Below, one piece after another: positions 11,098-32,286 of a stretch of DNA of 40,089 nt. The stretch lies in NCBI GenBank assembly GCA_002245135.1, contig NGBS01000316.1:62001-102089 (forward strand), in the 5' to 3' direction. The DNA comes from Proteromonas lacertae. Taxonomy: Eukaryota. A program made the position numbers and the translations under genes. How positions within the stretch are numbered: position 1 is the stretch's first letter; the number at the start of each line of letters is the position of its first letter. The notes beneath the pieces are model-generated. The model did no database searches. It was not told the origin of the DNA and worked only from the letters and a program-made list of their open reading frames with translations.

Positions 11098-11151
11098 TAT
11101 AGAGGATATGAATAAACAGGATATTTAGTGTTCCTATACCCAAAATATCCA
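11098..11151 (+). repeat. Left terminal inverted repeat (54 bp)
   Basis: TATAGAGGATATGAATAAACAGGATATTTAGTGTTCCTATACCCAAAATATCCA is the exact reverse complement of 32233-32286. Confidence 0.97.
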
Positions 11152-11208
11152 GTTCTGTTGAATAATTTTGCGGAAAAGTTCTACATCATAATCAGTATAG
11201 CTGTACAA

Positions 11209-11262
11209 ATCTATAGTTTTTCTCTACAGTAGCAAAGCCCCGTAGTAGAACAGCTCACTACA
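11209..11262 (+). repeat. Left subterminal imperfect inverted repeat
   Basis: ATCTATAGT(T/C)TTTCTCTACAGTAGC...GTAGAACAG(C/G)TC(A/G)CTACA matches the reverse complement of 32104-32156, with a divergent 10-11 nt centre. Confidence 0.9.
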
Positions 11263-11490
11263 TCTATAAGTCACTAACCCTAACCCTAGTTAGATCTATT
11301 TAATCATTATTATGTAATTATTTTTTTATAATATTTGATGCATAAATCATCAAAAACATCAAGAATTTATCAAATGAATGATAAATCATCAAATAAATCA
11401 ATTTTATTTTAACAATATAAAAATTGCATCTTGAATTCATTCGACATTTTCCTGAACTTTTCAGCATAAAATATTTTTTGCTTTATTAAC

Positions 11491-12222
11491 ATGTCTCACT
11501 TACATCAAATTGTTTACGTATCTGATAGTGATACAGATAGTGATTATGAGAGAGATATTGATAGTATCTCTAATCCTAAAATCAGAAAAATTTGTAAGAC
11601 AATTTATTTAGAAGATAAGGCTGCTGGTATCAAAAGACCAAAATATAGTATAACTTATATTATATTATAATTTATAGGTGTACCAGTAACAGGTGCTTCA
11701 TTTAACCCTTTTAATCCATACAGGTCTTTATCCATCAAAATTGAGTCACCCAATGGTGAGCCACCAAAAGAAAAATCACCATTATACTCACCAACAACTC
11801 CACCTGATACAGAATCAAATGTTAGACGTTTAATTAACTCTACTGTTCAAGAGCCTCCTCTACCACCACCAATTGTTGCTCATTATGATTATCATCCTGA
11901 AGAGCCTCCAATGGTAATTGCATCATTCAGTACAAATTTACCAGATAAGGACACCTTAACTTATGAAGAGATAAAGAAGCTGAGAAATGAGAGCTTAGTT
12001 GGTAATCGTATTAGAAACGGAAGAAAGAGAGTAAAGGCAATTAGAGAAGATTTAAGCTTTAAAATAGCAGCTGATGTAAACTTGTCAATGGACTTACAAA
12101 GATATTATGATGTAATGTTTAAGAAGAAGGAGTTAGAAGATAAGTTGTTTAAGCATCATAACCTAGAAACAAAACTCTTAAAGAAGATCACCAAGAAGGT
12201 ATTACAAGATAAAACTAATTAG
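11491..12222 (+). CDS. Viral hypothetical protein (233 aa; acidic N-terminus, Pro/Ser-rich middle, basic helical C-terminus) with a 30-nt intron at 11648-11677
   Basis: ATG at 11491 is open to 11647. Removing GTATAAC...TTTATAG (contains an in-frame TAA) joins it in frame to ORF 11911-12222. Confidence 0.8.
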
Positions 12223-12389
12223 TTATTAATTATTAATACTTTCTTTGATTGAATTTTGTTTTTTTATTGGTTGATTAAAAATAACATAAGCCAATAAATT
12301 AATCGAAAATCCAAGTGTTTTTTAACACTATAATTTCGATAAGATTTTCATTTGAAATTTTCTTGCTTCTTTTTTTTAAAAAAAAGACA

Positions 12390-12902
12390 ATGAATAACTC
12401 TAATATTGATAATATATATAGAAAATGTAGCACATGTAATCATAAGTATAAAATAGAATTATTTGGTAAATATAAGAATGGTAAATATCATAAATGTTGT
12501 AGAAGGTGTAGAAATATAACTAAAATACATGATAGAAAAGTTAGAGAATATTTAAAGTTAATTCCATTACCAATAAATAATAAATCAGTGAAAAAATGTA
12601 GCACTTGTTATAAAATATGTAATTTAGATAATTTTAAGAAGAATGAAGATGGATCTTATAATAAAACATGTAATCATTGTAGAGAGATTAATATAAAAAA
12701 TAGATTAAAAAGATATAAAGAAGCTATAGAATCTCATATAAAAAATGAATCTGTGAAACAATGTAGTTACTGTTTTAATGAATATAGTTTAAATTCCTTT
12801 TATAAAAAGAAAGATGGTTCATATTTTAAATTATGTCCTAATTGTATTTTTAAAGCAAGAGAACGATATAATCAATTAAAAAAAATAAATGATAATCATT
12901 GA
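12390..12902 (+). CDS. Viral zinc-ribbon protein with three CxxC-x(17-18)-CxxC repeats
   Basis: KCSTC...KCCRRC, KCSTC...KTCNHC, QCSYC...KLCPNC. First ATG is at 12390. Confidence 0.8.
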   Translation: MNNSNIDNIYRKCSTCNHKYKIELFGKYKNGKYHKCCRRCRNITKIHDRKVREYLKLIPLPINNKSVKKCSTCYKICNLDNFKKNEDGSYNKTCNHCREINIKNRLKRYKEAIESHIKNESVKQCSYCFNEYSLNSFYKKKDGSYFKLCPNCIFKARERYNQLKKINDNH

Positions 12903-12993
12903 ATTATAAATATCGATTTTTATTGGGTTTTTCATAATTTATCATTTTACTTTCATTTTCATTTTTCTTGCTCTTTTTCTAAAAATATAAAAA

Positions 12994-13692
12994 ATGAGTT
13001 ATTTTGAAGATGAAAATATAGAAGGATTAAAAACATGTTGTCGTACATGTGGCACTATATACAATCTTTATGAAATGGGAAGAAAATCAAATGGTTCTAT
13101 ATATAAAACTTGTATAGCATGCAGAGAAAAATTACGATTACAGTATAAAAATAAAAAGGAGTCTGTTCCATCTTTATCTGAAGAAAAAGGGTTAATTAGT
13201 AATCCATATTTATCAATTAATGATGAAATTGATAGAACAAGATTTGCTAAGTGTGGTAAGTGTAAGAAGATGTTTAGACTAACTGATTTGACTAAAAATA
13301 CTAAAACTAATGAATATTTTCATCAGTGCAATCAGTGTAGAGCATATTGTAAGTGTTATAAGAATTTATTAAAACAAAAGAAATCAATTCTTAATTTAAT
13401 GCATGAGGTATTTCAGTGTAGATGCTGTTCATTGTTCTATGATAATGATTATTTAGGTAAAGAAGAATTAAATGATAAAGTTATGACATTTTTATGTAAA
13501 GGTTGTCTTAGATTTAAGTTAAGATTAAAAACATATAAAAATTTATATAAAGATGAAGTTATAAGTGATAGTCAACTGATGAGATGTTATTATTGCGGTA
13601 TGTTGAGAAAAAAAGAAATAATGACTTATCAAAACATTTGTAATATCTGTATTAAAAAATACCATCATTGTTTAAAAAAACATTCAATATAA
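12994..13692 (+). CDS. Viral zinc-ribbon protein with four CxxC...CxxC units, probable paralog of the upstream gene
   Basis: CRTC..CIAC, CGKC..CNQC, CRCC..CKGC, CYYC..CNIC. Confidence 0.8.
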   Translation: MSYFEDENIEGLKTCCRTCGTIYNLYEMGRKSNGSIYKTCIACREKLRLQYKNKKESVPSLSEEKGLISNPYLSINDEIDRTRFAKCGKCKKMFRLTDLTKNTKTNEYFHQCNQCRAYCKCYKNLLKQKKSILNLMHEVFQCRCCSLFYDNDYLGKEELNDKVMTFLCKGCLRFKLRLKTYKNLYKDEVISDSQLMRCYYCGMLRKKEIMTYQNICNICIKKYHHCLKKHSI

Positions 13693-13762
13693 TTTTTTTG
13701 TTAAATATATAGTTATTGTTTTATTTAGGTATTTCTTATCATATTAGAGTTAAAAATATATA

Positions 13763-14110
13763 ATGAATATTTCATCAAATACATCTTTAATGAATTCATT
13801 AAAAGATGTATCAACTACAATTGATTCACTTAAAAATGAGATGTATATAGTATTATTTTTGTTAGGTTTATGGGTTTTAAATAAAATTAAAAAAATATGT
13901 GTGTATTTATATCGGAGACATTGCCCAGAAGATATATCAAAAATATTAGATGAACCTGTAACACCAATAACAACAATACCAATGTCGACTTTTATGACTA
14001 GATCAATGCCTCCACCTTCACCAAAAGTATCAAGAGTTCATTCAAATAGATCACTTAATACATATATAGAAGATATTGATATAGATATGAATGAAAAAAA
14101 GAATAATTAG
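13763..14110 (+). CDS. Viral small single-pass membrane protein
   Basis: MYIVLFLLGLWVL hydrophobic stretch followed by basic residues and a Pro/Thr-rich tail. Confidence 0.65.
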   Translation: MNISSNTSLMNSLKDVSTTIDSLKNEMYIVLFLLGLWVLNKIKKICVYLYRRHCPEDISKILDEPVTPITTIPMSTFMTRSMPPPSPKVSRVHSNRSLNTYIEDIDIDMNEKKNN

Positions 14111-14242: not shown

Positions 14243-15844
14243 TTATTGTAAGAAATCATCAAATATACTACCATCATAAGCTGGACTAAATTCAATATCA
14301 TCTGGTTCATTAGTGATTATATTACCATCTTCATCAAAGTTTAATTCAGGATTTTCTTCTTTTAATTTTTGTACATATACTTTTTTTAAAGCAGCTATTT
14401 GCTTTTCCAATTCATTCTCATATTCCAATTTTCGTTTGAAGACATCATACTGAACTTGACCTGAATTCTTTACAATTGTACCAAACGGTTTTGGTACAAT
14501 CTTTACCAAAGGTTTCGGAGGTAATGGTGGTGGTAGTGATTGATTTATTATTGGTGGTGGTTCATTAATTGAAACATCTATTTTCGGAGCTATCGGTTTT
14601 AATGATGGTTGAATAAATCGATTTCTTGTTGCCCAATTGTGTTTGGTATAATGTTCCGGTTCTGATTTTGCTTGCTCTATTTCCTTTATAGTATTCGGAT
14701 TAATGATACTTTTTGGTGTACTAATATTATCATCATTATCCTTAGATTTATCTGTTTTTGATACATCAGCAGCTTTTGGTACATCAACCATTTTATCAAT
14801 AACCTTTACATCAACAACTTTATCAACCTTTTTATCAGCAATAACTTTAGCTACATCATCCTTTTTATCAACAACTTTTGGTGCATCAACAACCTTTTTA
14901 TCACTAACCTTTTTATCATCAACCTTTTCAGCATCAACAACTTTATCAACCTTTTTATCAACAGTAACTTTAGCTACATCAACCTTTTTATCAACAACTT
15001 TTGGTACATCAACAACCTTTTTATCACTAACCTTTTTATCATCAACCTTTTCATCATCAACAACTTTATCAACCTTTTTATCAGCAGTATCTTTAGCTAC
15101 ATCAACCTTTTTATCAACAACTTTTGGTACATCATCAACCTTTTTATCAGCATCAACTTTAACATCCTTTACATTATCAACCTTTACATCATCAACAACT
15201 TTAGCTTTTACAATGTTTATTTTAATGACTTCATTATCATCATCTTCAAAATCATCATCTTCACATACCCAGTCTGTTTCTTTATCATTTAATGCTTCAT
15301 CATTTAATTCTTTGAGACTCTTTTTAGCCTTTTTAGCAGATGGTTTCCTTGTAACAACTTTACGAATTTTTTTAGGTTTATCATTAGTATAAATATCTAC
15401 ATTATCATTGTTTGATTTTCTCTTTACACCACCTAATAATTTTACATCTGAATCAAAGTTGTGTCCAACAGCATATGGACTTATTGATAAAACATCATCT
15501 AGACCTTTAAAGACATTAGCATTTACATAAGACGGATTTTTGTTAATACAACTAAAGAAGTGGTTTATTGCTTCTGCATACTGGATGACTGATGTTAAAG
15601 ATAATAAACTTGGTGAATTGGAATAATGAATGTATTTAATTTTATCATCACAAAAATTTATTATATGTGATGATAACATTTTAATCTTGATCCATTCTTT
15701 TACATCTATGGCATTGTAGCTCTTTCTACTAAACCACTGAGCTATACCTTCATGTTGCTGAGACTTCTTAACAACTTTTGATGTTTTTGATAAAGAATTT
15801 TCTTCTTCAACTCTTGGTGAACTGTGCTTAACACGAATACTCAT
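14243..15844 (-). CDS. Viral hypothetical protein (533 aa) with K/D/V tandem repeats
   Basis: Long ATG-initiated ORF with a globular-looking N-terminus, NLS-like KPKKIRK, DKKVD repeats and a Pro-rich/coiled C-terminus. Confidence 0.8.
   Translation of the reverse strand: MSIRVKHSSPRVEEENSLSKTSKVVKKSQQHEGIAQWFSRKSYNAIDVKEWIKIKMLSSHIINFCDDKIKYIHYSNSPSLLSLTSVIQYAEAINHFFSCINKNPSYVNANVFKGLDDVLSISPYAVGHNFDSDVKLLGGVKRKSNNDNVDIYTNDKPKKIRKVVTRKPSAKKAKKSLKELNDEALNDKETDWVCEDDDFEDDDNEVIKINIVKAKVVDDVKVDNVKDVKVDADKKVDDVPKVVDKKVDVAKDTADKKVDKVVDDEKVDDKKVSDKKVVDVPKVVDKKVDVAKVTVDKKVDKVVDAEKVDDKKVSDKKVVDAPKVVDKKDDVAKVIADKKVDKVVDVKVIDKMVDVPKAADVSKTDKSKDNDDNISTPKSIINPNTIKEIEQAKSEPEHYTKHNWATRNRFIQPSLKPIAPKIDVSINEPPPIINQSLPPPLPPKPLVKIVPKPFGTIVKNSGQVQYDVFKRKLEYENELEKQIAALKKVYVQKLKEENPELNFDEDGNIITNEPDDIEFSPAYDGSIFDDFLQ
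14770..15200. repeat. Coding tandem repeat, about 123-bp (41-aa) unit, roughly 3 copies, built of DKKVD sub-repeats
   Basis: DKKVDDVPKVVDKKVDVAKDTADKKVDKVVDDEKVDDKKVS recurs with few substitutions. Confidence 0.85.
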
Positions 15845-16004: not shown

Positions 16005-17168
16005 TTATGTATATCTTGAATTAGGTCTTATAGTTCTACCAAAAGAACTCTTTCTTATGTTTTTAGGTACAACATATGCTACTATATCATTTTTATCACT
16101 ATCATTTTTGTTTGAATTTATGCTTTTTATTGCACTTAATCTAAATCTACCTTTAGTTTTAATTGCATTCTTAATTTTTCTTAATTCATAAGGTTTAAAT
16201 TTAAATAATCCAAGGTTTTTAGGATTAAATTCAGAAGGAATTGATCCATCTATATTCTTTAATGAATAAGAAAAAGGTGTCTTTTTATCAATCATATAAA
16301 CTTTATCACTAAAATATCTGCTTTTATCTAATTTATTTCTTCTTCTCTCTTTAACTCTAACATATTCATTTTTATTAAATTTAGTATCTTTTAATCTTCG
16401 TTCTTTATTTCTTTGCCTTGATTCTTTATAAAACAAATCTTGTAATTCAAAATCATTATGAACTTCATTTGGTGTATACCCATTAAGCGAACTATGTGGT
16501 TTTGAATTATAATATAATACTACAGTATTTACTATATTAATTAGACCATTAAGATTATTTAATTTATTAAATTCTTCATCATCTAAAGTATTTAAGTATC
16601 TATAGAACATATTTTTGATAGTTCTTACTGCACTATCTAGTATCTTCATTATATTATGTTCATCAGTATCTTTCATTATAAATCTAATATTGTTTTTATT
16701 AAATAGCTGTAAGAACTTATTACCATATATCACACCTGATTCTTGATCCATTAAAATAGAACCTACAAATCTAGCATTTTCATCAGTATGTGCTAAATCT
16801 TGATAAAACCATTTTTCAAATACTGGAAATACGCTTGATTCAGTTTTACTTTTAACATAATATATCCACACTTTTCTACTAACTACTTCAATAATAAATA
16901 AAAAAGGTATGTTTGTATTATTGAAAAAAATAATATCCATTTGATATGAACCAGGTATCTTTTCTATCTCATACTTTATTTTTATTCTATTTTTAACTGC
17001 TACTTGATAATCTGGTTTTGATTCAACTAACTCTTTAGCAGTTCTTGTTATATCAGGTTTTGAATACTTTGATGATAATTCATCAACACTAAATTTTATA
17101 AAATCACTTTTATTTAAATAACCAAAGTCTTTATATAATTCATTTATTTTATGTTGTAAATCAGACAT
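16005..17168 (-). CDS. Retroviral-like (rve) integrase of Polinton/virophage type
   Basis: GSYQMDIIFF, FIIEVVSRKVW, ILMDQES, ILDSAVRTIK, YYNSKPHSSLNGYTP and SH3-like FNKNEYVRVK. First ATG is at 17168. No chromodomain seen. Confidence 0.92.
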   Translation of the reverse strand: MSDLQHKINELYKDFGYLNKSDFIKFSVDELSSKYSKPDITRTAKELVESKPDYQVAVKNRIKIKYEIEKIPGSYQMDIIFFNNTNIPFLFIIEVVSRKVWIYYVKSKTESSVFPVFEKWFYQDLAHTDENARFVGSILMDQESGVIYGNKFLQLFNKNNIRFIMKDTDEHNIMKILDSAVRTIKNMFYRYLNTLDDEEFNKLNNLNGLINIVNTVVLYYNSKPHSSLNGYTPNEVHNDFELQDLFYKESRQRNKERRLKDTKFNKNEYVRVKERRRNKLDKSRYFSDKVYMIDKKTPFSYSLKNIDGSIPSEFNPKNLGLFKFKPYELRKIKNAIKTKGRFRLSAIKSINSNKNDSDKNDIVAYVVPKNIRKSSFGRTIRPNSRYT

Positions 17169-17218: not shown

Positions 17219-20200
17219 TTATTTTTTATGATGTCTATCTTTAAGCCACTTATAATATAATTCTATATCTGCTTTACTTAAACGACATCTAGTAGGATCA
17301 ATACCATTACTTAAAATTGTATTAAAAAATTCTTCTCTTGCTTCATCACTACTAAATCTTAATGTATGTAATTGTGAATTATTATTTATATCATTATCAT
17401 TTCTAATAGGTTTATAAAAAGTATTATCACCTACAGCCATAATTGAATCTGGATCATCATCATAATCTTTTTCTTTTTCAGTATTTGTTACTGTAACTAA
17501 TTCTTTATTATTTGTAGCTGCTACTTCATTTTGTTGATTATTAACTAATGTTATATCAATTTTTCTTCTTTTGTTAATACTTTTTGTTTTAACTTTTTTA
17601 TTATCATCAGTAATAAAATCTTTGTTATAATATTTTGAATTTTTACGTCTCTCATCATTACTTCTTAATACTCTACCTGGTAATGGTGGTGGTGGTTCAT
17701 TAATTAATGTTTTCTTTCTTCTTACAGTTTTCTGTTTTTCAGACTCTTCTAATTCTTTTAATCTTATTTCTTTTAATCTTTCTCTTCTTGCTGCTTTTTC
17801 ATCTCTTGCAAGTTTTTCTTGTAATAATTTTAATTCTTTTTCTTTCTTATCTGCCTCTGAAGCATTTTTTATTGTATGAAGAATATTATTAATAACTTCT
17901 GTTGTTTTATACCCACCATTTTTAACTACATCAATTGCTTTAGATGTAAGATTTATAAAATCATTTAACATATTTCTTCCATTTTCTTCTATATTTATAT
18001 AATGATTTTGAATAGTAGGTTGTGGTGGTGGAGGTTCTTCAATTGGTTGAGTCTCTTGTACATTAGAAATATCTAAAGGAGGAACTTGATGATGAGGTAC
18101 TGGTAGTGACGGTGGTAGTGGTTCTTGAATAGGTAATGGTTCTTGTATATCTTCTATATCATCTTCTATTTCATTATTGTTATCATGAAGTGATATAGTA
18201 GGAATTTCAAATGTTTTACTACTTTTATTTTTCTTACTTCTATTATATTTTCTTTTCTTATTTTTATAAAATGAATAAGTATTTCCATCTTCATCTTCAT
18301 AAACACCATCATCATTATAATCTGTAATAAAATCTTTATATTTTGATGGCCTTTTTTTAATTCTTTTACCTAATAATGAATCATCTGTATTTGTTTCTAC
18401 ATCTCTAGTAACTTCATTTACAGTATTTGTTGATTCATCATTTAATGAAATAGGTAAAGGACTAGTTGATTCATCATTTAATGAAATAGATATAGGACTT
18501 GTTGATTCATCATTATGTGGTGGTGGGGCAGGATGATTAATTATTATAGGTGGTGGAGGATGTATTTCTTGTTGGCTTTGTAATTGTTCTAACTGGTTTT
18601 CTAATTTCTCAATTTCAAACAAATATGTATCTCTTTCTTTTTCTAATTCATAAATTGTTTGATTCATTATTCCTCCTTGTTGAGATATTTGTATTAACTG
18701 TTCATTTATTTGTTTTTGTATATTTTTTAATTCTTCTTGTAATCTTTCTCTCTCACGTATTTCATCTTGTAATTGATTTTCTATTTCTCTTTGTCTATTT
18801 ATATTATCATTTGGTTCAATATCTATATTATTTCCCATTATTAATCTGATTCGATGATTATTAGAATTTATAATATTAGTTGAATCACTAAGAATTAATG
18901 AATTATCATTATTATTAATTATTAAATCAGTTGATCCGTTATCTATAAATGTTCTTGAAGGTGTATTGTTTAACGAAACAACTAAAGGTTGCATATCATT
19001 ACTAGGAGGGAATATTACTCTTAATCTTCTATTAACTGTATCAGTTGATGTACTAGTATCTGATACTGATGGAGGAGGTTCTTGTATTTCTACATCATCA
19101 TATCTTTGATGAATTAAATCTCTATTTGTATATTGATTTACATTATTATGAGGTCTTGTACTAGTTAATATTCTTCTAGGTGATCTAACAATTGAATCTA
19201 TATGATTTCTATCATTAACTATTCCTATATTTGGTATATCAGTTGATGTACTAGTATCTGATACTGGTGGAGGAGGTTCTTGTATTTCTACATCATCATA
19301 TCTTTGATGAATTAAATCTCTATTTGTATATTGATTTACATTATTATGAGGTCTTATTCTAGTTAATATTCTTCTAGGTGATCTAACAATTGAATCTATA
19401 TGATTTCTATCATTAACTATTCCTATATTTGGTATATCAGTTGATGTACTAGTATCTGATACTGGTGGAGGAGGTTCTTGTATTTCTACATCATCATATC
19501 TTTGATGAATTAAATCTCTATTTGTATATTGATTTACATTATTATGAGGTCTTGTACTAGTTAATATTCTTCTAGGTGATCTAACAATTGAATCTATATG
19601 ATTTCTATCATTAACTATTCCTATATTTGGTATATCAGTTGATGTACTAGTATCTGATACTGGTGGAGGAGGTTCATGTATATGTACAACATCATTAATT
19701 TGTGTTCGAAGTCTATTCTTTTTTCGTTTTTTATCTATTACTAATCTTGTTCCATCTCTTGATCTGTAATTATCTCCTGTACCACTTGTATCTACATAAT
19801 AATCATTTAATCTTCCTGGTAAATGAATTTCATCTCTATTTCTTAAATTAGGTCTACCACTATCATTAATTTGAATATGAGGTGAATTGACTGGTGAGTT
19901 GACTTGTGATATAAGTGGTGAATTAGGTGATGGTGGATTCACTACTGGCGGTGGCGGATTCACTATTGGTGGACCTCTACCTGGTGGTGGATTTATTACA
20001 CCTCTACCTGGTGATGGATTTACTACGCCTCTACCTGGATTTACTACAGGAACTCTAAATAGTGGGCCTCTACCTGGTGGTGGATTTACTATACCTCTAC
20101 CTGGATTTACTACAGGAACTCTAAATGGTGGACCTCTACCTGGTGGTGGTGGATTCACTATTGGTGGTCCTCTACCTGGTGGTGGTGGATTCACTATTGG

Positions 20201-22148: not shown

Positions 22149-22919
22149 TTATTTATGCTTAACACTATAAGCTAAAAAGTTTTCTAAATCAAGTTGTGGA
22201 TTATAAATACCTTTTTTATTAAATCCACAAGGTTTTGTTAAACCATTATTAACAGGCATACTTCTTACTCTTCTTCTCTTACCTGCACCATTACTAACTG
22301 GCATTCTTCTTGCAATTAGTTTTCTTAAACCAGCACCATTTTGTTTATATCTTAAACCACCTCTAACTCTTCGTTTACCATAACCGAATTTTGATGATGT
22401 ATTATACACTTTATCAGCTACATCAGCAACTTTATCAAAACCTAATGTATTAGCAACATTACGAGCTTTTCTTGCTATATTGCTTATATACTTCTTCTCT
22501 CTCAATGCACTATTAATCTCTTTTGCTTTTTCAATACCATTTTTAAATTTGTCAGAAGTTACAAAATCTTTAACTTTTGTTATTCCTGATTTTATCCAAC
22601 TACCTAAACCTGCTGATCTAATCAATCTACCATCATTAGCAAACCTATATCTTCTAGTTGTTCTTACTTTTCTTGCTTTTCTTGCATTTCTTCTTTGTTT
22701 TACTTGTCTACAATTTATAGTTAATGAGATTCCATTAGTTTTTCTTCTTCTTAAAGGACATCTTCTTGTAGTAGTTCTTCTAGTTGATCTTCTTCTTCTT
22801 CGTCTACCATAACCCATATTCTCAATACTATCACCAATTGCTGGTCCAGCAAATGGTATTAACTTTGCTGCATTTGATAAAATTTTTGATTTTTTTAACC
22901 AATCTTTAAACTTACCCAT
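22149..22919 (-). CDS. Putative virion core / membrane-lytic precursor (adenovirus pVI/pVII-like): Arg-rich, amphipathic helices, GxG protease-site motifs
   Basis: MGKFKDWLKKSKIL and GLGSWIKSGITKVKDF amphipathic segments; MGYG-RRRRRR, FGYG-KRR, NGAG-LRK, NGAG-KRRR, VRGG-L. Lies head-to-head with the protease gene. Confidence 0.65.
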   Translation of the reverse strand: MGKFKDWLKKSKILSNAAKLIPFAGPAIGDSIENMGYGRRRRRRSTRRTTTRRCPLRRRKTNGISLTINCRQVKQRRNARKARKVRTTRRYRFANDGRLIRSAGLGSWIKSGITKVKDFVTSDKFKNGIEKAKEINSALREKKYISNIARKARNVANTLGFDKVADVADKVYNTSSKFGYGKRRVRGGLRYKQNGAGLRKLIARRMPVSNGAGKRRRVRSMPVNNGLTKPCGFNKKGIYNPQLDLENFLAYSVKHK

Positions 22920-22991: not shown

Positions 22992-23555
22992 ATGAATATA
23001 TTCACTAATGTTTATGCTTATGGTAGTAGAGTGATAGATAGTAATAATATTAAAACAGATGCAATATCAAATCATGACATAATTAAAATAATGACATTTT
23101 TTCCTGCAGCTAATAAATATTTTAAAGGTGTATATTTATGGAATGAAAATCAATATATTAATAAATATAAAGATTGTAATAAATGGTGTGTTATACTATG
23201 CACAAATAAAACAAGTGATAAGAGATCAAAAATTGGTCACTGGGTTAGTTTAATTATTGATAATGATAAAAAAGAGATATTATATTATGATAGCTTTGGT
23301 GAACCACCAAAAGAAATAAAAAAATTTTATAAAAGAATGCAAAGATGTAAGAAATACCCTGATGAATTATATCAAATTAAAATAAATAGAGTAAAACATC
23401 AAAGAACTAATAGTGCAAGATGCGGATATCATGCAATTTTATTTTTATTATCAATATTAGATAATAATAAAACATTTAAAGAAGCAACTAATTTTAATAC
23501 AATTGAAGGTGAAGCTAAAGCAAAATTATTACAAAATAAATTTAAAATGATTTAA
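22992..23555 (+). CDS. Adenain/Ulp1-like (clan CE) cysteine maturation protease
   Basis: GHWVSL (His), YYDSFG (Asp), HQ..NSARCGYH (Gln, Cys). Confidence 0.92.
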   Translation: MNIFTNVYAYGSRVIDSNNIKTDAISNHDIIKIMTFFPAANKYFKGVYLWNENQYINKYKDCNKWCVILCTNKTSDKRSKIGHWVSLIIDNDKKEILYYDSFGEPPKEIKKFYKRMQRCKKYPDELYQIKINRVKHQRTNSARCGYHAILFLLSILDNNKTFKEATNFNTIEGEAKAKLLQNKFKMI

Positions 23556-23995: not shown

Positions 23996-26140
23996 CTAAA
24001 AATATTTTGATTTTTTATACATATAGCCGTTATGTAACAAATGTTTTCTTCTTCTCTTACCTGTACCATATAAATCAGTATGAGCTAATACATTATCTTG
24101 TTCAGTAGTAAATTCAGGATGATGTATATCATTATAAATATATACATATTTTTTAAGTGATCTATGTATAACAACAACAACTTTATCATTAAATTTACAT
24201 AGAAAAGGATAGTTATAATATTTATATACACCATCATTAGGCATATCTAATAAATAATTATTTATTTGAATTTGACATCGATCTAAAACATACCAGTCTT
24301 GACTATTTTCATAATAATTAGGTATGATACTTAATGTAGCACATACAATTTTCTTTTCTTCTTCAGTTTGTCCAGGTTGTTCACCCCAATTTATGTGATA
24401 TCTTTTTGGGAATAAAACATTACTATTTTTAGCTTCTTCATCATCTATTATATTAATCAAGGGACACATTAAATATAAATCTTCCTTAGCTTTACTTAAA
24501 TTACTATGAAAGAATCTTAATTGACATTCAGCATAAGTATTTATAGAATAATCATAACCATAAAATCTTAACATATTTGATTTCTTTTTTAATTTATCGA
24601 AGGGATATATTTCTGAATTTTTAATAGGCAATTGAATATTGAATTTATTTACATATGCTATAAAATTATCATAAGAAACATTATCTTTTAATATTACTAT
24701 CTTTTCATTTTTAAATTTGTTATTCATATAACCTTGAACATCATATATATAAGTTATCAAATGAAATAAATCTACTGCATAAATATGAAGTAGCTGTTCC
24801 AACGATAATTTTCTCACATTACTTTTATTAGTTATAAATGTATTAGGATCTTCATCATTAAATCTATATAAAACAAATGTAGGAGGTTTTAAATCAGTAC
24901 TTTTCGTAAAATTAATACTATTTTTACTATTTGGTTCATATTTTAAATTTTGAGAATCTAAACGAAATGGAACTTCATCATATACCCAATCTGTTTCAGA
25001 ATCAGTATCATTATTATTATCTACTGATGTAACAGGTTCATTTGGAGCTTCTGAATCTACTGGTGTAACAGGTTCAGTTGGGGCTTCTGAATCTACATCA
25101 TCATTATTTTGAAATATTGATGAATAAGGTACTTGTCTTGTAGTACCATCTAATCTAAAATGATTAACTGTATCTGGTGGAGCAGTCGGATGTGATGGTG
25201 GTGTTATTGGTGAATATACCGGTGATACCTCTCTTGGTATTTCATTATTATTACTATAATCACTTGAAACTAAAGGTGGTGGTATTGGTAAATCATTTTC
25301 ATCATAATTAAGTCTATATGTATCATCATCAATATCATCTTGTACTGATTGAGCTTGTTGTTGTTGTGGTGGTGGTGGTGGTGATGATGGTTGAGGTTGA
25401 GAGTGTTGTTGTTGTTGTGGAACAACAGGTTGTTGTACCACATTATTTCTAAAATTTACATTTACATTACCTCTATTAGGATTTGTAACTTGATATCTTC
25501 CATTATAATCTGCTGATAAAGCTTCTTCAACAGGTAATAATGGTGGAAAAGAACTGATATATTTTTTCTTTTGTGCTAATCTATTCATATAAAACATAAT
25601 TGCATCAGCATAATGATTTGTATCTCTTTGTCCTTCTTTTATATTATTTGATTCAAGTATTTTTTGAATTGTTGCTATGTAATTCATTCTATATCCATTA
25701 GAAGCAGATGATGGTAAACCCATTATATTTCTTTTGTCATAATCAGGAGGTTCAGGATATACATTACCATCTCTTAAACTAGGTATTTTATACTTACTAA
25801 TAAAAAATAATTCTGTAACACAATTATATATCAATACAGCTATAGAGAATGCTGTTCTTTCTTGTTGTGCAGTTATATACCAAAATTTCGTTTTCATTAA
25901 CTTATTAATAAATATTCTTATCTTATTAATTGTTACAGAACAATACACTTGAATCGTTTGTGAATGAATTGATCTATCTATTAAAGGTTGATTTTCATAA
26001 GGATCATCAGGTAAATCATCATCATCTTCCTCATCATCATTATTACTATCTTCATTATTATTTTGTTGTTGTTGTGAATGTGGTTGAATTGATTGATTCA
26101 TAATCGTTATTATCATATATATCTTTATCATCTTCTTCAT
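23996..26140 (-). CDS. Viral hypothetical protein (about 700 aa) with Q/P-rich linker and C-terminal LYGTG-KRRRK motif; may be fused to the upstream ORF
   Basis: Long ORF with two globular-looking regions. Start is uncertain (26140 or 26101, or a frameshift from 26058-26807). Confidence 0.75.
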   Translation of the reverse strand: MKKMIKIYMIITIMNQSIQPHSQQQQNNNEDSNNDDEEDDDDLPDDPYENQPLIDRSIHSQTIQVYCSVTINKIRIFINKLMKTKFWYITAQQERTAFSIAVLIYNCVTELFFISKYKIPSLRDGNVYPEPPDYDKRNIMGLPSSASNGYRMNYIATIQKILESNNIKEGQRDTNHYADAIMFYMNRLAQKKKYISSFPPLLPVEEALSADYNGRYQVTNPNRGNVNVNFRNNVVQQPVVPQQQQHSQPQPSSPPPPPQQQQAQSVQDDIDDDTYRLNYDENDLPIPPPLVSSDYSNNNEIPREVSPVYSPITPPSHPTAPPDTVNHFRLDGTTRQVPYSSIFQNNDDVDSEAPTEPVTPVDSEAPNEPVTSVDNNNDTDSETDWVYDEVPFRLDSQNLKYEPNSKNSINFTKSTDLKPPTFVLYRFNDEDPNTFITNKSNVRKLSLEQLLHIYAVDLFHLITYIYDVQGYMNNKFKNEKIVILKDNVSYDNFIAYVNKFNIQLPIKNSEIYPFDKLKKKSNMLRFYGYDYSINTYAECQLRFFHSNLSKAKEDLYLMCPLINIIDDEEAKNSNVLFPKRYHINWGEQPGQTEEEKKIVCATLSIIPNYYENSQDWYVLDRCQIQINNYLLDMPNDGVYKYYNYPFLCKFNDKVVVVIHRSLKKYVYIYNDIHHPEFTTEQDNVLAHTDLYGTGKRRRKHLLHNGYMYKKSKYF

Positions 26141-26789
26141 TAAAAGGTTGTGTATGATCTTTTGTTTCTTTTTGTATTTTTCTAATTCTTTTATTTTCTA
26201 ATTTAACAACATTCAATCTTTCTTTAGGATGAAGCACAACAAATGGATTATTTCTTAATATATAATTAGAAGCAATACATAATTCATCAATAGCTTTATT
26301 TAATCTATCAACAATTATTTTAACATCATTGTTTGTTTCATAGCTATATTGATATAATGATTTATTTCTTGAAAACGGTCCATGTTGATATAACGATTTA
26401 CACCAGTTAAATAACTTCATATGTACATCATATAAATTATAGATTCTATTAAACTCATGATCAGGCCATCCTACTGGTATAAGTCTCTTATCAATTATTT
26501 CATCTAATCTAAATCTTGTTAACTTTTTTGCATTATCATATATAATATCTTCATAATCTTCATTACTAAGATGTTCATCATTGCCTACAATACTTATATT
26601 ATCAGAATCAGTATTTTCTTCTGTTTCATCATCATCATCATCATTATTAGCATTAACAGAATTATTACTATTATTAATACCATTATTACTAGAATTGCTA
26701 CGACTGTTATTATTTGAGTTATCTACTGCTGTACCTTCATCATCATCAAAATTTAATAAATCTCTACGTATTCTATTACGATTGTTCAT
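26058..26789 (-). CDS. Viral hypothetical protein (N/D-rich N-terminus, helical domain)
   Basis: ORF 26058-26807 with first ATG at MNNRNR. Overlaps the next ORF in another frame. Confidence 0.7.
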   Translation of the reverse strand: MNNRNRIRRDLLNFDDDEGTAVDNSNNNSRSNSSNNGINNSNNSVNANNDDDDDETEENTDSDNISIVGNDEHLSNEDYEDIIYDNAKKLTRFRLDEIIDKRLIPVGWPDHEFNRIYNLYDVHMKLFNWCKSLYQHGPFSRNKSLYQYSYETNNDVKIIVDRLNKAIDELCIASNYILRNNPFVVLHPKERLNVVKLENKRIRKIQKETKDHTQPFNEEDDKDIYDNNDYESINSTTFTTTTK

Positions 26790-26841: not shown

Positions 26842-27810
26842 ATGCAACCTAAGAGTGATACTAATAAATTAGGTCATAGAAGAGCAATTTTTTTATCATC
26901 AACTGATATTATTGAAAGAGAGTCAGATGTATATACAAAGTGTTTATCAACACCTGTTATAACTGAAGAATATCAGTATATTACGTTAAACATAGCAAGA
27001 ATATCAAACAATAACATATACACTATTCAAAATGATGTTAATGAAAAAGTATGTTTTGATATAGAATATTTTCATGTAAATGATCCTATAAAACCCTTAA
27101 ATGATCCAAGCGTAATATTAAGCGGACCAAAATTAAATACATTAGAGATAAAGATACCACAAAATCATTATAGTGGTGAAGAGTTTTTAAATTATTTAAC
27201 AAAGAGTATGTTAACTGAATTAAAATTTACTACACTAGTACGTAAAGATATTTTACCTGTAAAAGAAAAAGATGAAGATGAAAGTTTTAATTATTTCTTA
27301 CATCCTCAAGCTGGAGATAAGATATTTGACTGGTATGATAAGACTACGAATAGATTAAAATTATATTGTGCAATATATACTCACTTTGGTAATTATATAC
27401 TAACAAAAATAAAAATGCGAATGCCTAACCTATTTGGTAGGTTATTAGGTAGTAATGTAATAGATGACGAATTAATTATATTAGATAGTAATCCATCGCA
27501 TAGTTGGGGTACAAAAGAACAATACTATGATCATAAATTTTTATTAACACCATCACTTATATGGTGTAATGTAATACAAGTTAGATGTAGTTGGGTTAAT
27601 AATGGTGAGAATTCAGCTGTTTTAGCAAACATACCTATAACTGATATATCAAACACAAATATAACATGGGTTAATCCACAAATAGATTGGTCAACTAAAA
27701 AGATGCAATTTCATGATTATCAAAAAATAAAGTTCAATCTATCAAATGAAGATGGTTATGCTATAGATTTAACTAATATATCATTTCAATTTGAGATAAT
27801 AGTTTATTAA
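26842..27810 (+). CDS. Minor capsid (penton) protein, single jelly-roll
   Basis: IPQNHYS..EF, RLLG, IQVRCS, VLANIPI and IKFNLSNEDGYAIDL..F.FEI match the Polinton/PLV penton pattern. Lies directly upstream of the MCP. Confidence 0.82.
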   Translation: MQPKSDTNKLGHRRAIFLSSTDIIERESDVYTKCLSTPVITEEYQYITLNIARISNNNIYTIQNDVNEKVCFDIEYFHVNDPIKPLNDPSVILSGPKLNTLEIKIPQNHYSGEEFLNYLTKSMLTELKFTTLVRKDILPVKEKDEDESFNYFLHPQAGDKIFDWYDKTTNRLKLYCAIYTHFGNYILTKIKMRMPNLFGRLLGSNVIDDELIILDSNPSHSWGTKEQYYDHKFLLTPSLIWCNVIQVRCSWVNNGENSAVLANIPITDISNTNITWVNPQIDWSTKKMQFHDYQKIKFNLSNEDGYAIDLTNISFQFEIIVY

Positions 27811-27872: not shown

Positions 27873-29402
27873 ATGAATAATATAACAACTGTACCACAAT
27901 CTCAAATTCATAACAGTGTTGTACCAACATTAATACCTGATTATGTCTACATTCCTATTACACCTAACCAAACAAGAGATGTAGTTGTTTTAAGTCAAAC
28001 ATCATCAACTGATACAATAACTTTTGAATTATCACCAGATAGTTGTATGAATTTATCAAAATCTTATCTCGATTTTGATTTAATAATCGATCCTCATATA
28101 GTATCTGCAAATCCTGGTAATCCTGCTGCAGCTGGTAATGCATATACTATAGCAGGACGAGCAGCAGCAGCATTACCAGGTCCTGCAGTAGGTGAAACTC
28201 ATGCTTTAAGATTAAGAAACACAATGAATTTTAATTCAATTAAAGTATACAACAAAACAGGAACAGTATTATGCGATTTAGATAACAGCTATAATGAATA
28301 TAGAGACTTAATGCATGAATTATCTTATCATTGTCCAGATGATGTGAAAGGTATTAAATATTATGATGATACATTTGATGGATGTCATGTAGCAAAAGAT
28401 AAAGCAAATGGTCAATATGAAGTAATAGATCCATTATTATTACATTATACTCCTGGTAATAGAACAAGATCTAGATGTGGTCTTAAAGAAGAACATTATA
28501 TGGAAGTGATAGATCCTGTAGGAGGTGCACCAATGGTTGATATAAGAATAAAAAGGCATTGCCGATTTCATTTTGCTGATTTATTTAATACAATTTTATC
28601 ATGCAAAAGTGATATTTATTTTGGTGAAACAATTTATATTTCAATAACATTTGCAGGAATTAATTCATGGATATTATATAAGCATAAATTAATTGCACAA
28701 ACAGCTGAGGCTGATCATGATGGAGAAAGCTATTATGATGAATGGACAAGATTTATTGAAATGAATATAATAAATCCAAAATTATATGTTGCATATAATA
28801 AAAGTCCACAATGTAATGCAAATACAATTAATTATGTTACTCATCATGGTATAGATTTTACTGATTTCAATATAGTTCAGTTAGTAAAAGATACTATTAC
28901 AGGTGATCCTAATTTTAGCTATAATTTTACTATTAATAGTAGTTTAGGTCCTTATGTGAAATATATATTATATAGAGTTTATATGAATAATGTTGCAACT
29001 AGAACACCTTTACCTTTTAAGTTTGCTGATGATAGAGTTAAATGGCAAATAAATGATACACCATGTACACCAGATTATTTAAATATAACTAAATATGAAA
29101 CATTTGAAAAATTATATCCTATAATTAGAGGAACATATTTTGAGAGATGTCATCAAGAAATTGATTGGTATGAAAGATTTTTTGATATATTAAATTTCGG
29201 AAGTGATTCATTAACTGATATAAAATCAAGAGCAGGTAGAGATTTAAGTAAAGATTTAAAAATTACTTTTGAAGCAAGAAATCATGTTTTTGATACAAAT
29301 AATACTGCTCATCATGCAGTAATGACATATCATCACAAGTTCTACATTATAACAGGTAAGATGTTAATCATCTCAGCTAGAGGAGTAGAGAAGGTGATTT
29401 AA
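27873..29402 (+). CDS. Major capsid protein, double jelly-roll (divergent)
   Basis: 509 aa, beta-rich. N-terminal TITFELSPDSCMNLSKSYLDFDL and FNSIKVYNKTGTVLCDL patterns. Sits between penton and ATPase. Confidence 0.82.
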   Translation: MNNITTVPQSQIHNSVVPTLIPDYVYIPITPNQTRDVVVLSQTSSTDTITFELSPDSCMNLSKSYLDFDLIIDPHIVSANPGNPAAAGNAYTIAGRAAAALPGPAVGETHALRLRNTMNFNSIKVYNKTGTVLCDLDNSYNEYRDLMHELSYHCPDDVKGIKYYDDTFDGCHVAKDKANGQYEVIDPLLLHYTPGNRTRSRCGLKEEHYMEVIDPVGGAPMVDIRIKRHCRFHFADLFNTILSCKSDIYFGETIYISITFAGINSWILYKHKLIAQTAEADHDGESYYDEWTRFIEMNIINPKLYVAYNKSPQCNANTINYVTHHGIDFTDFNIVQLVKDTITGDPNFSYNFTINSSLGPYVKYILYRVYMNNVATRTPLPFKFADDRVKWQINDTPCTPDYLNITKYETFEKLYPIIRGTYFERCHQEIDWYERFFDILNFGSDSLTDIKSRAGRDLSKDLKITFEARNHVFDTNNTAHHAVMTYHHKFYIITGKMLIISARGVEKVI

Positions 29403-29455
29403 AAATTATGATTTTAATTACAATTTAATATTTCTATTGCTATTATTACTTTATT

Positions 29456-30217
29456 ATGTTTAAGTTTGAAAAAATAAATAACATAAGGGTTGAACCTGTA
29501 GATGGTGGTGAAAAATTCAATCCTAAGAAGATAGTTGGTTATGATTATTTCAATGAGCCATTTTGTAACATTTTTATAGTTGCTCGTAAAAATAGTGGTA
29601 AGACTACTCTCATCTATAATATATTAAGACATGTTTTGGATCCAAGATATAAAGAAAAACAACATGTTCACTTCTTTGTGGGAACTATCAAACAAGACAA
29701 GTTATATGATTCAATCAAAGAATTACTCGATTATCACGAAATTGATTATGATGAAAATGATTCACTCATTGATCCAGAGTCAGGTGAGAATGTGGTAGAG
29801 AGAATGATGAAAGAAATAAATGATGTTGATAAAGATAATTATTCTTATGCTGAGCATATTATGATCTTTGATGATCTTAGTTTAGAATTAAAAACATCAA
29901 CAATAATACCTGTACTGATGAAAGAAAATAGACATTTAAAATCAAAAATTATTATTAGTAGTCAATATATAACAGATATAGTACCAGCAGCTAGATCACA
30001 AGTTGATTATTGTCTTACATTTTATGGGTTAAGTAATAGAAATCTATTTGATTTATACAACTCATTAAATATATGGATCCCTGAGTATGAAACATTTAAA
30101 AAATTATATCTTGCAGTCACTAAACCACAATTCAATTTTTTATATATTGATAATGTTAAAAAAGTCTTTAGAGCAAATTTTAATATTATGATTGAAGATC
30201 ATTCTGAAGTTTCTTAA
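29456..30217 (+). CDS. A32-like FtsK/HerA genome packaging ATPase
   Basis: Walker A ARKNSGKTT, Walker B IMIFDD, NRH..IIISSQ, ARSQVDY, FLYID. Confidence 0.93.
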   Translation: MFKFEKINNIRVEPVDGGEKFNPKKIVGYDYFNEPFCNIFIVARKNSGKTTLIYNILRHVLDPRYKEKQHVHFFVGTIKQDKLYDSIKELLDYHEIDYDENDSLIDPESGENVVERMMKEINDVDKDNYSYAEHIMIFDDLSLELKTSTIIPVLMKENRHLKSKIIISSQYITDIVPAARSQVDYCLTFYGLSNRNLFDLYNSLNIWIPEYETFKKLYLAVTKPQFNFLYIDNVKKVFRANFNIMIEDHSEVS

Positions 30218-30272
30218 ATAATATTTTTATAAATATATATATATATATATATATATTCATTAATAAAAAATA

Positions 30273-30944
30273 ATGTTTATTGGGGATAGAAATAAAGTTG
30301 ATGTATTAGATGAAGATAAATTAATAGATGATATTACAAATAATATTACAGATAAATTAGATGAAGTGAAAGATCAAATTCTAACAGTATGTAATACAAT
30401 AAATAGTGTAGTAAATAATATACCTCGTACTATAATACCAAGACCTTATTGTTTGCATAAACAACATACATTTTATTCTATGAAAAGAAAATATTTAGTT
30501 AATGGATCACCTGTATGGGATACTAAAATTACTAAAATACCAATCAAAATAGAGATGTTTGAGCATTTTATGAAGATTAAATTATATGATGGTTTTACAT
30601 GTAATTATAGTGGATATATAGGTCATCAATTATATTTAGATGAAGATGATATCATCAAAGCTGAACCTGGTAGAGATGAATATTTACAACGTTATTATAA
30701 TATACTACTAGGATTATACTCTAATAAATTATTCCCCATTAGAGCAACAAATGTTAAAGATACTTATCATACATTAACTAATAGACCTTATTATGAGATA
30801 AAACATACATTAGTTAATAATAATAATAATCAACCTACATTATGTATTGTAGCTGATCAATACCCTAATCAAGAATATCTTGCAATACCAAGACAGACAT
30901 TCTTCACAGATTATATGAACACAGGTATTACAGAATTCTTTTAA
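30273..30944 (+). CDS. Putative fibre/spike-like protein 1
   Basis: MFIGDRN N-terminus, heptad-like stalk and beta-rich C-domain shared with the next gene. Function is inferred. Confidence 0.55.
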   Translation: MFIGDRNKVDVLDEDKLIDDITNNITDKLDEVKDQILTVCNTINSVVNNIPRTIIPRPYCLHKQHTFYSMKRKYLVNGSPVWDTKITKIPIKIEMFEHFMKIKLYDGFTCNYSGYIGHQLYLDEDDIIKAEPGRDEYLQRYYNILLGLYSNKLFPIRATNVKDTYHTLTNRPYYEIKHTLVNNNNNQPTLCIVADQYPNQEYLAIPRQTFFTDYMNTGITEFF

Positions 30945-31044
30945 TATAATAATAATAATAATAATAATAATACGTATATATAAATCAGTTTTAAATTTCT
31001 TGATGAATTTAATAGATTTTATATTTTTTATAATATATAAAATT

Positions 31045-31929
31045 ATGTTTATTGGTGATAGAAATAATAATACATTAGATATTGATACAAAAGAGATTGC
31101 AAGTGAGATATCAAAAAATGTTAGTGTTAATATAGATATTCAAACATTATCAGATTCTATATCACAAAAGATTCAAATACCAACACCTAATATAACTGTA
31201 GATAGTAATAGTATATCAACCTATATAAATCAACCAATAAATGATAATACTGATACTAAAACAAAAGCAATAAAAGATGAAGTAGATCAAATTTATAATG
31301 AAGTTGATACAATAAGAAATATTGAAAGAGTTGTAGGTTGTAATGATTATAATACTGATGAAGAATTATATATGACTCAAGGTTTTGGTAAATATGATTC
31401 AATTTATAATCATCTTAAATTAATAAATATATATAACCCACAACCTTATAGTATTCAAATTACTACATGGACTGTAAAAGTTACTAGAACAGATAATACA
31501 TCATCAATTATAGATCAGATACCTATTAAAGTTACAATATTCATGAATTCTATAAGAATCAAAATTTATAATACACATCAATTAATTTATAATGATAGAT
31601 CAGATATAAAACAAATTGATATTTATCTAGATGATAATCATTTATTATCAAAATTATATAGTAATCAATCTGTATTAACTGATTTTTATAATAAGCTTAT
31701 TGAAAAATACCCTAATGATGGTAGTAATTGTATAGTATTCCCATTACAAGTTTATAATAATTCTCAATACCCATCAGAATACATACCAACACATTTTATA
31801 TTAATAAATGATAATAAACCTAATCTACATTTACAAAGTGATAGTATTGAAGGTTATCAAAAACAATGTATATTACCTGGTGTTATTGAAACTATGTATA
31901 TTGATTACAGTATTATCAATCCTTTATAA
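31045..31929 (+). CDS. Putative fibre/spike-like protein 2, paralog of 30273-30944
   Basis: ATG at 31045 gives the identical MFIGDRN. QPY..IPIKVTIFMNSIRIKIY matches RPY..IPIKIEMFEHFMKIKLY. Confidence 0.55.
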   Translation: MFIGDRNNNTLDIDTKEIASEISKNVSVNIDIQTLSDSISQKIQIPTPNITVDSNSISTYINQPINDNTDTKTKAIKDEVDQIYNEVDTIRNIERVVGCNDYNTDEELYMTQGFGKYDSIYNHLKLINIYNPQPYSIQITTWTVKVTRTDNTSSIIDQIPIKVTIFMNSIRIKIYNTHQLIYNDRSDIKQIDIYLDDNHLLSKLYSNQSVLTDFYNKLIEKYPNDGSNCIVFPLQVYNNSQYPSEYIPTHFILINDNKPNLHLQSDSIEGYQKQCILPGVIETMYIDYSIINPL

Positions 31930-32103
31930 TATACTATTTATTACATCATCAATATCTTTTAGTATAATTTTAGTATATTTTTAGTGAATTATAAACACCT
32001 TTTATTAATTTTAGTGAAATCCCACCATGTATTATAAAATATTTATCCCATCATCCTTTATATCCCTACCAGTAAAACCAGTAGAACTTAGAATAACATA
32101 GCT

Positions 32104-32156
32104 TGTAGCGACCTGTTCTACCCCTGCCGTGGCTACTGTAGAGAAAGACTATAGAT
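32104..32156 (-). repeat. Right subterminal imperfect inverted repeat
   Basis: Reverse-complement match to 11209-11262. Confidence 0.9.
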
Positions 32157-32232
32157 CAATATTTTACTATTAATCCATCAGTAATTAATATTTCAAATTT
32201 TTTAATTTGTTTCCTCAATATTTTAAACATTT

Positions 32233-32286
32233 TGGATATTTTGGGTATAGGAACACTAAATATCCTGTTTATTCATATCCTCTATA
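32233..32286 (-). repeat. Right terminal inverted repeat (54 bp)
   Basis: Exact reverse complement of 11098-11151. Confidence 0.97.

What the first reader, a model, noticed from the sequence alone, without database searches (positions are those of the whole stretch)
11098..32286. Apparently complete endogenous Polinton-like virus with no recognisable replication module
Seen: both TIRs, a 6-bp TSD, and intact integrase, protease, penton, MCP and ATPase ORFs. Nearly all 21.2 kb is filled by ORFs, none showing pPolB (DxxSLYP, YxDTD), AEP primase or SF1/SF3 helicase motifs. Known: Polintons carry rve integrase plus pPolB, and most PLVs/virophages carry a polymerase or primase-helicase. Inference: this is an integrase-plus-capsid virus lineage that replicates with host or helper machinery, or uses a highly divergent replication protein among the large orphans (14243-15844, 23996-26789). 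It could be an undescribed group in gut stramenopiles.
Basis: partly seen in the sequence, partly recalled or inferred. Interest (0 to 1): 0.9.

Follow-up and report, generated by a model that had tools for sequence, protein, structure and literature searches.

The report
Polymerase-less Polinton-like virus of gut protist
A 21-kb virus-like element in the chromosome of what is likely a gut protist carries genes for insertion and for building a virus particle but no recognisable DNA-copying enzyme, so it likely borrows that enzyme from another element in the same nucleus; its capsid likely belongs to a family already listed in print, and this copy has two broken reading frames.

Summary
The element is real: perfect 54-bp terminal inverted repeats, rve integrase, adenain-type protease, A32 ATPase and a double-jelly-roll MCP. 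ORFs cover 91% of it and no gap exceeds 393 bp. No pPolB, primase or helicase was found by motif or profile scans.

Four corrections. (1) The main orphan, 23996-26789, is one ~950-aa gene split by a frameshift. Intact homologues share a C-terminal Gly/basic motif with a core-like protein, so it is likely a virion protein; its fold is unresolved. (2) A second 1,410-codon frame has an internal TGA. (3) The 'TSD' is palindromic, so it cannot be told from the TIR end, and the rejoined flanks give no complete host gene. (4) The MCP shares 7 of 7 clade motifs, read by eye, with a published Proteromonas lacertae MCP (285 hits in that genome), and replicase-less PLVs are in print (VC40).

No sister genome could be fetched, so family-wide loss versus loss in this copy stays open. 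Best reading: a new variant that is copied in trans.

The parts
11092..11097 (.). ATATAT: target-site duplication or outermost TIR bases (palindromic, ambiguous)
11098..11151 (+). left TIR, 54 bp, identical to the right TIR
11209..11262 (+). left subterminal box, 44 of 54 columns identical to the right box
11491..12222 (+). ORF1, 233 aa if a 30-nt GT-AG intron (11648-11677, holding an in-frame stop) is spliced; orphan
   Evidence: intron inferred, no RNA data
12390..12902 (+). 170-aa protein with 6 CxxC motifs, HNH-associated zinc-ribbon-like
   Evidence: PHROG 2255 E 9e-7
12994..13692 (+). 232-aa protein with 8 CxxC motifs
13763..14110 (+). 115-aa protein with one hydrophobic stretch; orphan
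14243..15844 (-). 533-aa orphan: about 110-aa globular N-terminal part, then K/D/V repeats (3 x 123 nt) and a Pro-rich tail; no replication motif
16005..17168 (-). rve-type integrase, 387 aa; candidate triad D78, D141, D178 (third residue Asp; the usual Glu is recalled)
   Evidence: PF00665 E 4e-4
17219..21451 (-). one reading frame of 1,410 codons with a single TGA at 20978-20980: 157-aa basic head, then a Pro/Gly-rich repetitive body with no Met for 661 codons
21516..22082 (-). 188-aa charged orphan
22149..22919 (-). 256-aa basic protein (27% K+R) with three G-x-G-basic motifs; likely protease-cleaved core protein
   Evidence: role inferred
22992..23555 (+). adenain/Ulp1-type maturation protease, with His83, Asp100, Gln137 and Cys144 motifs present
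   Evidence: PF02902, PF00770
23552..23968 (-). 138-aa orphan
23996..26789 (-). one ~950-aa gene split by a frameshift near 26100 into 243-aa and 714-aa frames; three conserved domains and a C-terminal Gly/basic motif; likely virion protein
   Evidence: P0193 (951 aa) is 63% identical to each piece over about 160 aa; P0201 (882 aa); fold unresolved
26842..27810 (+). probable penton (minor capsid protein), 322 aa
   Evidence: position and size only; no library hit
27873..29402 (+). [quoted passage not shown]
29456..30217 (+). A32-like packaging ATPase, 253 aa
   Evidence: PF04665 E 5e-4; Walker A/B
30273..30944 (+). 223-aa protein, paralogue of the next gene; possible spike or fibre
   Evidence: BLASTP 26% over 170 aa, E 4e-8; role guessed
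31045..31929 (+). about 294-aa protein (308 aa from the upstream ATG at 31003), paralogue of the previous gene
32103..32156 (-). right subterminal box
32233..32286 (-). right TIR, 54 bp
32287..32292 (.). ATATAT: target-site duplication or outermost TIR bases

Best explanation
This is an integrated Polinton-like virus with an rve integrase and a protease-type capsid module but no recognisable replicase, and it is likely copied in trans by a protein-primed polymerase or polymerase-helicase made by another element in the same nucleus that would recognise its terminal repeats. SHOWN: the ends, the gene set, the double-jelly-roll MCP fold, the absence of replication motifs and profile hits, and two broken frames. 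INFERRED steps: (1) host RNA polymerase II transcribes it in the nucleus (ORF1 has a host-sized GT-AG intron); (2) the integrase acts on the TIRs to insert, and perhaps excise, the linear DNA; (3) a helper replicase amplifies it from the 54-bp TIRs and inner boxes; (4) the ATPase packages DNA into MCP/penton capsids, and the protease matures the 256-aa and ~950-aa proteins at Gly/basic sites. This copy is likely ageing or carries assembly errors.
For: No room for a replicase: the longest inner gap is 167 nt, and no orphan has a long unbroken globular stretch (longest runs 150-170 aa). One Walker A in six frames. Linear TIR ends without a significant hairpin (z -0.9 to -1.5 for the TIR) and no initiator hit make host-only amplification harder to picture. 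DDE integrases correlate strongly with PolB, and both are proposed to act on the same ends (10.64898/2026.10.13.758929, passages). The matching MCP cluster has 285 hits in one gut stramenopile genome (PMC10120064 Table S4 row), so helpers could be present. A Blastocystis MELD virus has PolB plus integrase (PMC8502044 passage). Partial elements that may depend on complete copies are described in a related host (10.64898/2026.07.28.741278 passage).
Against: No helper was seen: no host genome is held, and no relative was found in IMG/VR, JGI or GTDB. The element is full-sized and tightly packed, with no polymerase remnant, which fits a stable replicase-less design equally well. VC40 shows that whole groups can lack detectable replication genes. 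The ~950-aa protein's fold is unresolved.
Confidence: 0.45

Rival explanations
1. The whole family lacks a replicase and relies on host nuclear enzymes: it is copied with the chromosome, spreads by integrase cut-and-paste with host repair, and is amplified by host polymerases for packaging.
For: Dense, remnant-free layout. Probable host-type intron. A distinct MCP clade of 12 of 85 rows (SH 100, branch 1.2). The virion gene is conserved in three lineages. VC40 is a precedent, and many EVEs lack a detectable polymerase.
Against: No initiator protein was found, and no terminal hairpin beyond shuffles. Only one genome was seen. DDE integrases usually travel with PolB.
Confidence: 0.25
2. It is a virophage-like parasite whose DNA is copied in the factory of a giant virus of the host.
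For: It has the four virophage-type core functions. AATTCTT is enriched in its intergenic DNA, 7 against a shuffled mean of 1.4 (chosen after the fact), which recalls EMALE promoter motifs (PMC8547959 passages). Several PLVs depend on giant viruses.
Against: A spliceosomal intron points to nuclear transcription, and EMALE genes have none. All EMALE types described there keep a primase/helicase or pPolB. No giant virus was seen here.
Confidence: 0.1
3. The ~950-aa protein (or the 533-aa protein) is an unrecognised replication or terminal protein.
For: Its first two domains are 63% identical to P0193, more than the MCP's 53% to P0001. Adenovirus terminal-protein precursor is also protease-cleaved (PMC11161782 passage). 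The structure test was inconclusive.
Against: Domains of about 150, 160 and 280 aa are split by disordered linkers. No Walker A, pPolB or hDhD motif lies in frame. Invariant columns are mostly hydrophobic or Asn. The gene sits between protease and penton, and it is broken in this copy.
Confidence: 0.12
4. The window joins two different copies (by ectopic recombination or misassembly), so its gene set and 'TSD' do not represent one insertion.
For: The rejoined flanks give no start for the EGF gene. Indel-like breaks occur in the element and possibly in the host EGF gene.
Against: Joining two colinear copies would normally keep the gene set. The TIRs are identical. The left-flank frame has no Pfam hit, so it may not be a gene.
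Confidence: 0.08

Closest known systems
Proteromonas lacertae endogenous MCP cluster (PMC10120064, Tables S3 and S4; 285 hits, one cluster)
   Same: The printed 450-aa MCP carries all 7 motif classes that mark this clade (read by eye). Four of the 7 occur in 0 of 120 distant hits and in 11-12 of 12 clade members. Both were recognised only by fold.
   Different: In the parts I could read there is no gene map, replication gene or TIR description for these elements (Table S5 rows cut; Dataset S1 gave locus names only). The sequences were not aligned.
Polintons/Mavericks (Polintoviricetes), including Gosseviruses
   Same: TIRs, about 20 kb, rve integrase, cysteine protease, A32 ATPase, double-jelly-roll MCP
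   Different: No pPolB or helicase, a short TIR, and an MCP on a long branch with no Pfam hit
VC40 subgroup of Zephyr PLVs (10.64898/2026.06.19.733378)
   Same: Small genome with no detectable replication gene
   Different: VC40 has an NCLDV-like MCP, Tlr6FP and a methyltransferase; the passage lists no integrase or protease
Blastocystis MELD virus (PMC8502044)
   Same: Gut stramenopile host, integrase, highly divergent virion proteins
   Different: It encodes PolB; whether its MCP is of this family was not testable
Tlr1 of Tetrahymena and mid-GC EMALEs of Cafeteria
   Same: rve integrase plus capsid module without a standard pPolB
   Different: They carry a large helicase or primase-helicase gene; here the only Walker A is in the packaging ATPase

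Membership tests
Polinton/Maverick (Polintoviricetes) | protein-primed PolB gene | tested here: not met
   0 motif A/B/C hits in six frames; no Pfam hit in 19 + 34 frames; no gap large enough
Polinton/Maverick (Polintoviricetes) | rve integrase | tested here: met
   PF00665 E 4e-4, 21 bits, below the 32.6 cut-off; weak DDE transposase rows
Polinton/Maverick (Polintoviricetes) | terminal inverted repeats | tested here: met
   54 bp perfect plus an inner box
Polinton/Maverick (Polintoviricetes) | 5-6 bp target-site duplication | tested here: inconclusive
   ATATAT on both sides but palindromic; rejoined site unconvincing
Polinton/Maverick (Polintoviricetes) | cysteine protease and A32 ATPase | tested here: met
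Polinton/Maverick (Polintoviricetes) | MCP clusters with group 1, group 2 or Gossevirus MCPs | tested here: inconclusive
Polinton-like viruses (umbrella term) | double-jelly-roll MCP | tested here: met
   13 of the top 14 VIA rows are DJR capsid or scaffold proteins; best Z 12.6, rmsd 5.5, 311 aligned; Foldseek E 2e-10
Polinton-like viruses (umbrella term) | [quoted passage not shown] | tested here: inconclusive
   322-aa ORF before the MCP; no hit; not folded
Polinton-like viruses (umbrella term) | A32 ATPase and a 15-45 kb genome | tested here: met
Proteromonas MCP cluster of PMC10120064 | MCP of the same family | tested here: met
   7 of 7 motif classes read by eye in the printed sequence; motif specificity; motifs written after seeing both sides, and no alignment made
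Virophages (Lavidaviridae) | virophage-type MCP | tested here: inconclusive
   Sputnik and mavirus MCPs score Z 10.7, below ASFV at 12.6, on a pLDDT-51 model; no sequence hit
Virophages (Lavidaviridae) | dependence on a giant virus | not testable with these tools
   needs culture
Tlr1-like PLVs | pPolB-S1H (Tlr1-like helicase) gene | tested here: not met
   the only Walker A is in the 253-aa ATPase; no helicase family apart from a weak P-loop row on that ATPase
Mriyavirus/Zora-like groups | HUH endonuclease | tested here: inconclusive
   no library hit; HxH strings fall mostly in non-coding frames or in other genes; orphans not folded reliably

The most novel reading that the evidence does not exclude
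A deep-branching family of gut-stramenopile viruses (at least 12 capsid lineages at 27-54% identity) integrates with an rve integrase, builds protease-matured adenovirus-style particles and has given up DNA replication genes altogether, being copied by host nuclear enzymes: a capsid-bearing DNA provirus with a retrovirus-like dependence on the host.
Probability: 0.25. Interest if true: 0.8.

Novelty: new variant of a known kind. Interest (0 to 1): 0.5.

Why it matters
How most Polinton-like viruses copy their DNA is unknown, and rve integrases nearly always travel with PolB. An element that keeps integrase, protease and capsid but no replicase breaks that pairing. Its family probably has hundreds of copies in a cultured gut stramenopile, so one genome survey could separate helper, host and hidden-enzyme models. 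If the loss is family-wide, it defines a new life style. If it is copy-specific, it is an ordinary non-autonomous derivative, though it still gives a gene map for an MCP cluster that I found only as a table entry.

Tried and rejected
Own genome: none held. Sequencing runs: none was listed, and no RNA holder was listed, so no reads were laid.

Locus searches found no relative: viral contigs with the MCP, MCP alignments, the ATPase, two distant-MCP alignments and a TIR pattern; metagenome contigs; genome contigs. Phage records gave nothing real. ESM Atlas gave no result for any protein sent.

The ~950-aa model (pLDDT 34.6) gave only common helical matches (best Z 6.4; one Foldseek row at E 9e-4 with prob 0.16; none at 0.001 in PDB), so it was not used as evidence. 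PDB sequence searches were empty or at noise level.

Terminal hairpins were no better than shuffles. An intron to skip the TGA at 20978 was considered but is unsupported (no good GTA donor listed there). The left-flank frame, which I first read as SPRY-like from memory, has no Pfam hit. The Starrett supplement held no Blastocystis entry or clade motif, but the file is cut at 4 million characters. The first tree run did not finish, so FastTree was used.
Full report
Observation. The window holds a 21,189-bp element bounded by a perfect inverted repeat: 60 nt, made of 54 nt at 11098-11151 / 32233-32286 plus ATATAT outside each end. About 110-130 nt further in, each end has a second box, 44 of 54 columns identical. 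Its 13-nt core occurs only at these two places in the window. The inner ends score 44 in local alignment against a shuffled maximum of 37 in 300 shuffles. ORFs cover 19,218 of 21,189 nt; the two terminal gaps are 393 and 357 nt and the longest inner gap is 167 nt. GC is 26.9% against 27.5% in the flanks.

Core genes. Pfam gives rve (E 4e-4), Peptidase_C48/C5 (9e-8 and 2e-7) and Pox_A32 (5e-4); the first and last are below their curated cut-offs. Protease and ATPase motifs are present. The integrase's candidate triad is D78, D141, D178; that the third residue is usually Glu is recalled, and I did not test whether Asp is normal in this group. The 509-aa ORF has no library hit, but a model from 8 sequences (pLDDT 51) matches double-jelly-roll proteins in 13 of the top 14 rows, best ASFV p72 at Z 12.6, rmsd 5.5 over 311 residues. 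Foldseek agrees. The penton rests on position and size only.

No replicase found. A six-frame scan gave 0 hits for pPolB motifs A, B and C, one Walker A (the ATPase), four bare DTD strings without polymerase context, and 8 hDhD strings, none in the frame of either named orphan (patterns recalled). Of the 56 stop-to-stop frames of 60 aa or more, 19 are the main ORFs, 3 belong to the flanks and 34 are other frames. The 19 were scanned against Pfam, PHROG and NCBIfam (the full 1,252-aa frame) and the 34 against Pfam. No replication family appeared, apart from DnaB_C at E 0.1 on the ATPase P-loop.

The orphans. The 243-aa and 714-aa frames are one gene. P0193 (951 aa, Logan only) matches the first at 63% over 160 aa and the second at 63% over 159 aa, with a third conserved domain further on. 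P0201 (882 aa) is a third lineage. This copy is therefore split by a frameshift near 26100. All three lineages end in a Gly-rich, basic motif. In the element, a G-x-G-basic pattern occurs only here (once) and in the 256-aa basic protein (three times), among 20 frames tested. I read these as protease sites in virion core proteins; that is inference from recalled adenovirus biology. The fold could not confirm it: pLDDT 34.6 and no usable match. Against my reading, the first two domains are more conserved than the MCP. Whether these two breaks are decay, recoding or sequencing error is unknown. ORF1 opens to 233 aa if a 30-nt GT-AG intron is removed, similar to candidate introns in the flanks.

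Insertion site. Two random flank 6-mers would match with probability 0.0008, so ATATAT on both sides is not chance. It is palindromic, however, and so equally a TIR end or a preferred target. In the rejoined site, the teneurin-like EGF gene on the right has no in-frame ATG, and the open frame on the left runs antisense into it. The TSD is unproven, and a join of two copies is possible.

Host. Flank genes are eukaryotic (kinase, kelch, LRR, PHD, EGF), with candidate introns of variable length (the scan found 22-47 nt) and normal stop codons. Human Blastocystis have 30-nt introns and 39-55% GC, and tortoise isolates 21-23% GC (PMC12129017, passages). An Opalinata-type gut stramenopile fits, but this is inference.

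Relatives. The MCP has 7 homologues at 33-54% identity, all Logan-only. A profile search gave 12 proteins at 1e-30, 39 at 1e-10 and 261 at 1e-3. A FastTree tree used 85 rows: the window MCP, 11 close proteins, and those of P0049-P0129 that are 400-580 aa long; fragments and weaker hits were left out. It puts the 12 close rows on one side of a branch of length 1.2 with SH 100, without a root.

Literature. PMC10120064 (passages, section 9, supplement rows): the Table S1 and S4 rows give Proteromonas lacertae 285 MCP hits in one cluster, and the ten Blastocystis rows of Table S1 have no count. Table S3 prints a 450-aa MCP recognised by Foldseek. By eye that sequence has all 7 motif classes that mark this clade; 4 of them occur in 0 of 120 distant hits (motifs chosen after the fact). 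Table S5 rows for that genome are cut and Dataset S1 shows only locus names, so unseen supplements may already show whether those elements carry pPolB. The same paper says many EVEs lack a detectable polymerase. 10.64898/2026.06.19.733378 (passages) describes VC40, 15-20 kb and lacking detectable replication genes. 10.64898/2026.10.13.758929 (passages) reports a strong DDE-PolB correlation and mobile replication modules. PMC8502044 (passages; supplement searched, cut, no hit) reports a Blastocystis MELD virus with PolB and integrase. PMC11161782, PMC8547959 and 10.64898/2026.07.28.741278 (passages) describe integrase-bearing relatives that keep a helicase or polymerase. PMC12220804 and 10.1101/2025.04.19.649669 (passages) added nothing decisive. 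Nine searches found no description of the gene content of the Proteromonas elements; bioRxiv supplements were closed.

Mechanism. The element can plausibly insert (integrase, TIRs) and build particles (MCP, probable penton, ATPase, protease, cleavable basic proteins), but making particles needs many genomes. It has linear ends with no significant hairpin and no initiator gene. The simplest supply is a protein-primed polymerase or polymerase-helicase from another element that recognises the ends (0.45). Host-only copying as a family trait (0.25), a hidden replicase (0.12), a giant-virus helper (0.10) and a chimeric join (0.08) remain. An earlier, unchecked note from this scan describes a Polinton split into a polymerase half and an integrase-capsid half; it is a lead for the helper model, not support.

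Verdict. The feature is real and unusual in pairing rve integrase and protease with no replicase. It is not a Polinton by definition (pPolB not met) and is best filed as a PLV of the Proteromonas-type MCP family. It is a new variant of a known kind; interest 0.5, rising to 0.8 if the loss proves family-wide.

Noticed in passing
intergenic gaps, e.g. 17203, 21475, 22108, 22964, 26826: AATTCTT occurs 7 times in 1,864 nt of gaps against a shuffled mean of 1.4 (1 of 2,000 shuffles as high; chosen after the fact). Five lie in sense just upstream of the integrase, the 1,410-codon gene, the 188-aa gene, the protease and the penton. Candidate promoter element.
   Followed up: partly
12346, 12951, 12957, 15887, 23989: TTTCATT lies upstream of the two CxxC genes and the 533-aa and 138-aa genes (5 against 1.5 expected; 41 of 2,000 shuffles). 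Possibly a second promoter class.
   Followed up: partly
11648-11677: Probable 30-nt spliceosomal intron in a viral gene; EMALE genes were reported to have none.
   Followed up: partly
19022-19702 and 19881-20996: Three 198-nt tandem repeats (95-96% identical) and nested Pro/Gly-coding repeats raise GC to 52% locally.
   Followed up: no
32293-33616: Host teneurin-like EGF gene directly at the right end, lacking a start codon. A hydrophobic stretch in a neighbouring frame suggests an indel in a T run, so the assembly may hold indel errors.
   Followed up: partly
11276-11290: Short telomere-like TAACCC repeat just inside the left subterminal box, absent at the right end.
   Followed up: no
30273-31929: Two paralogous orphan genes that both begin MFIGDRN, at the end of the capsid module; candidate spike proteins.
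   Followed up: partly
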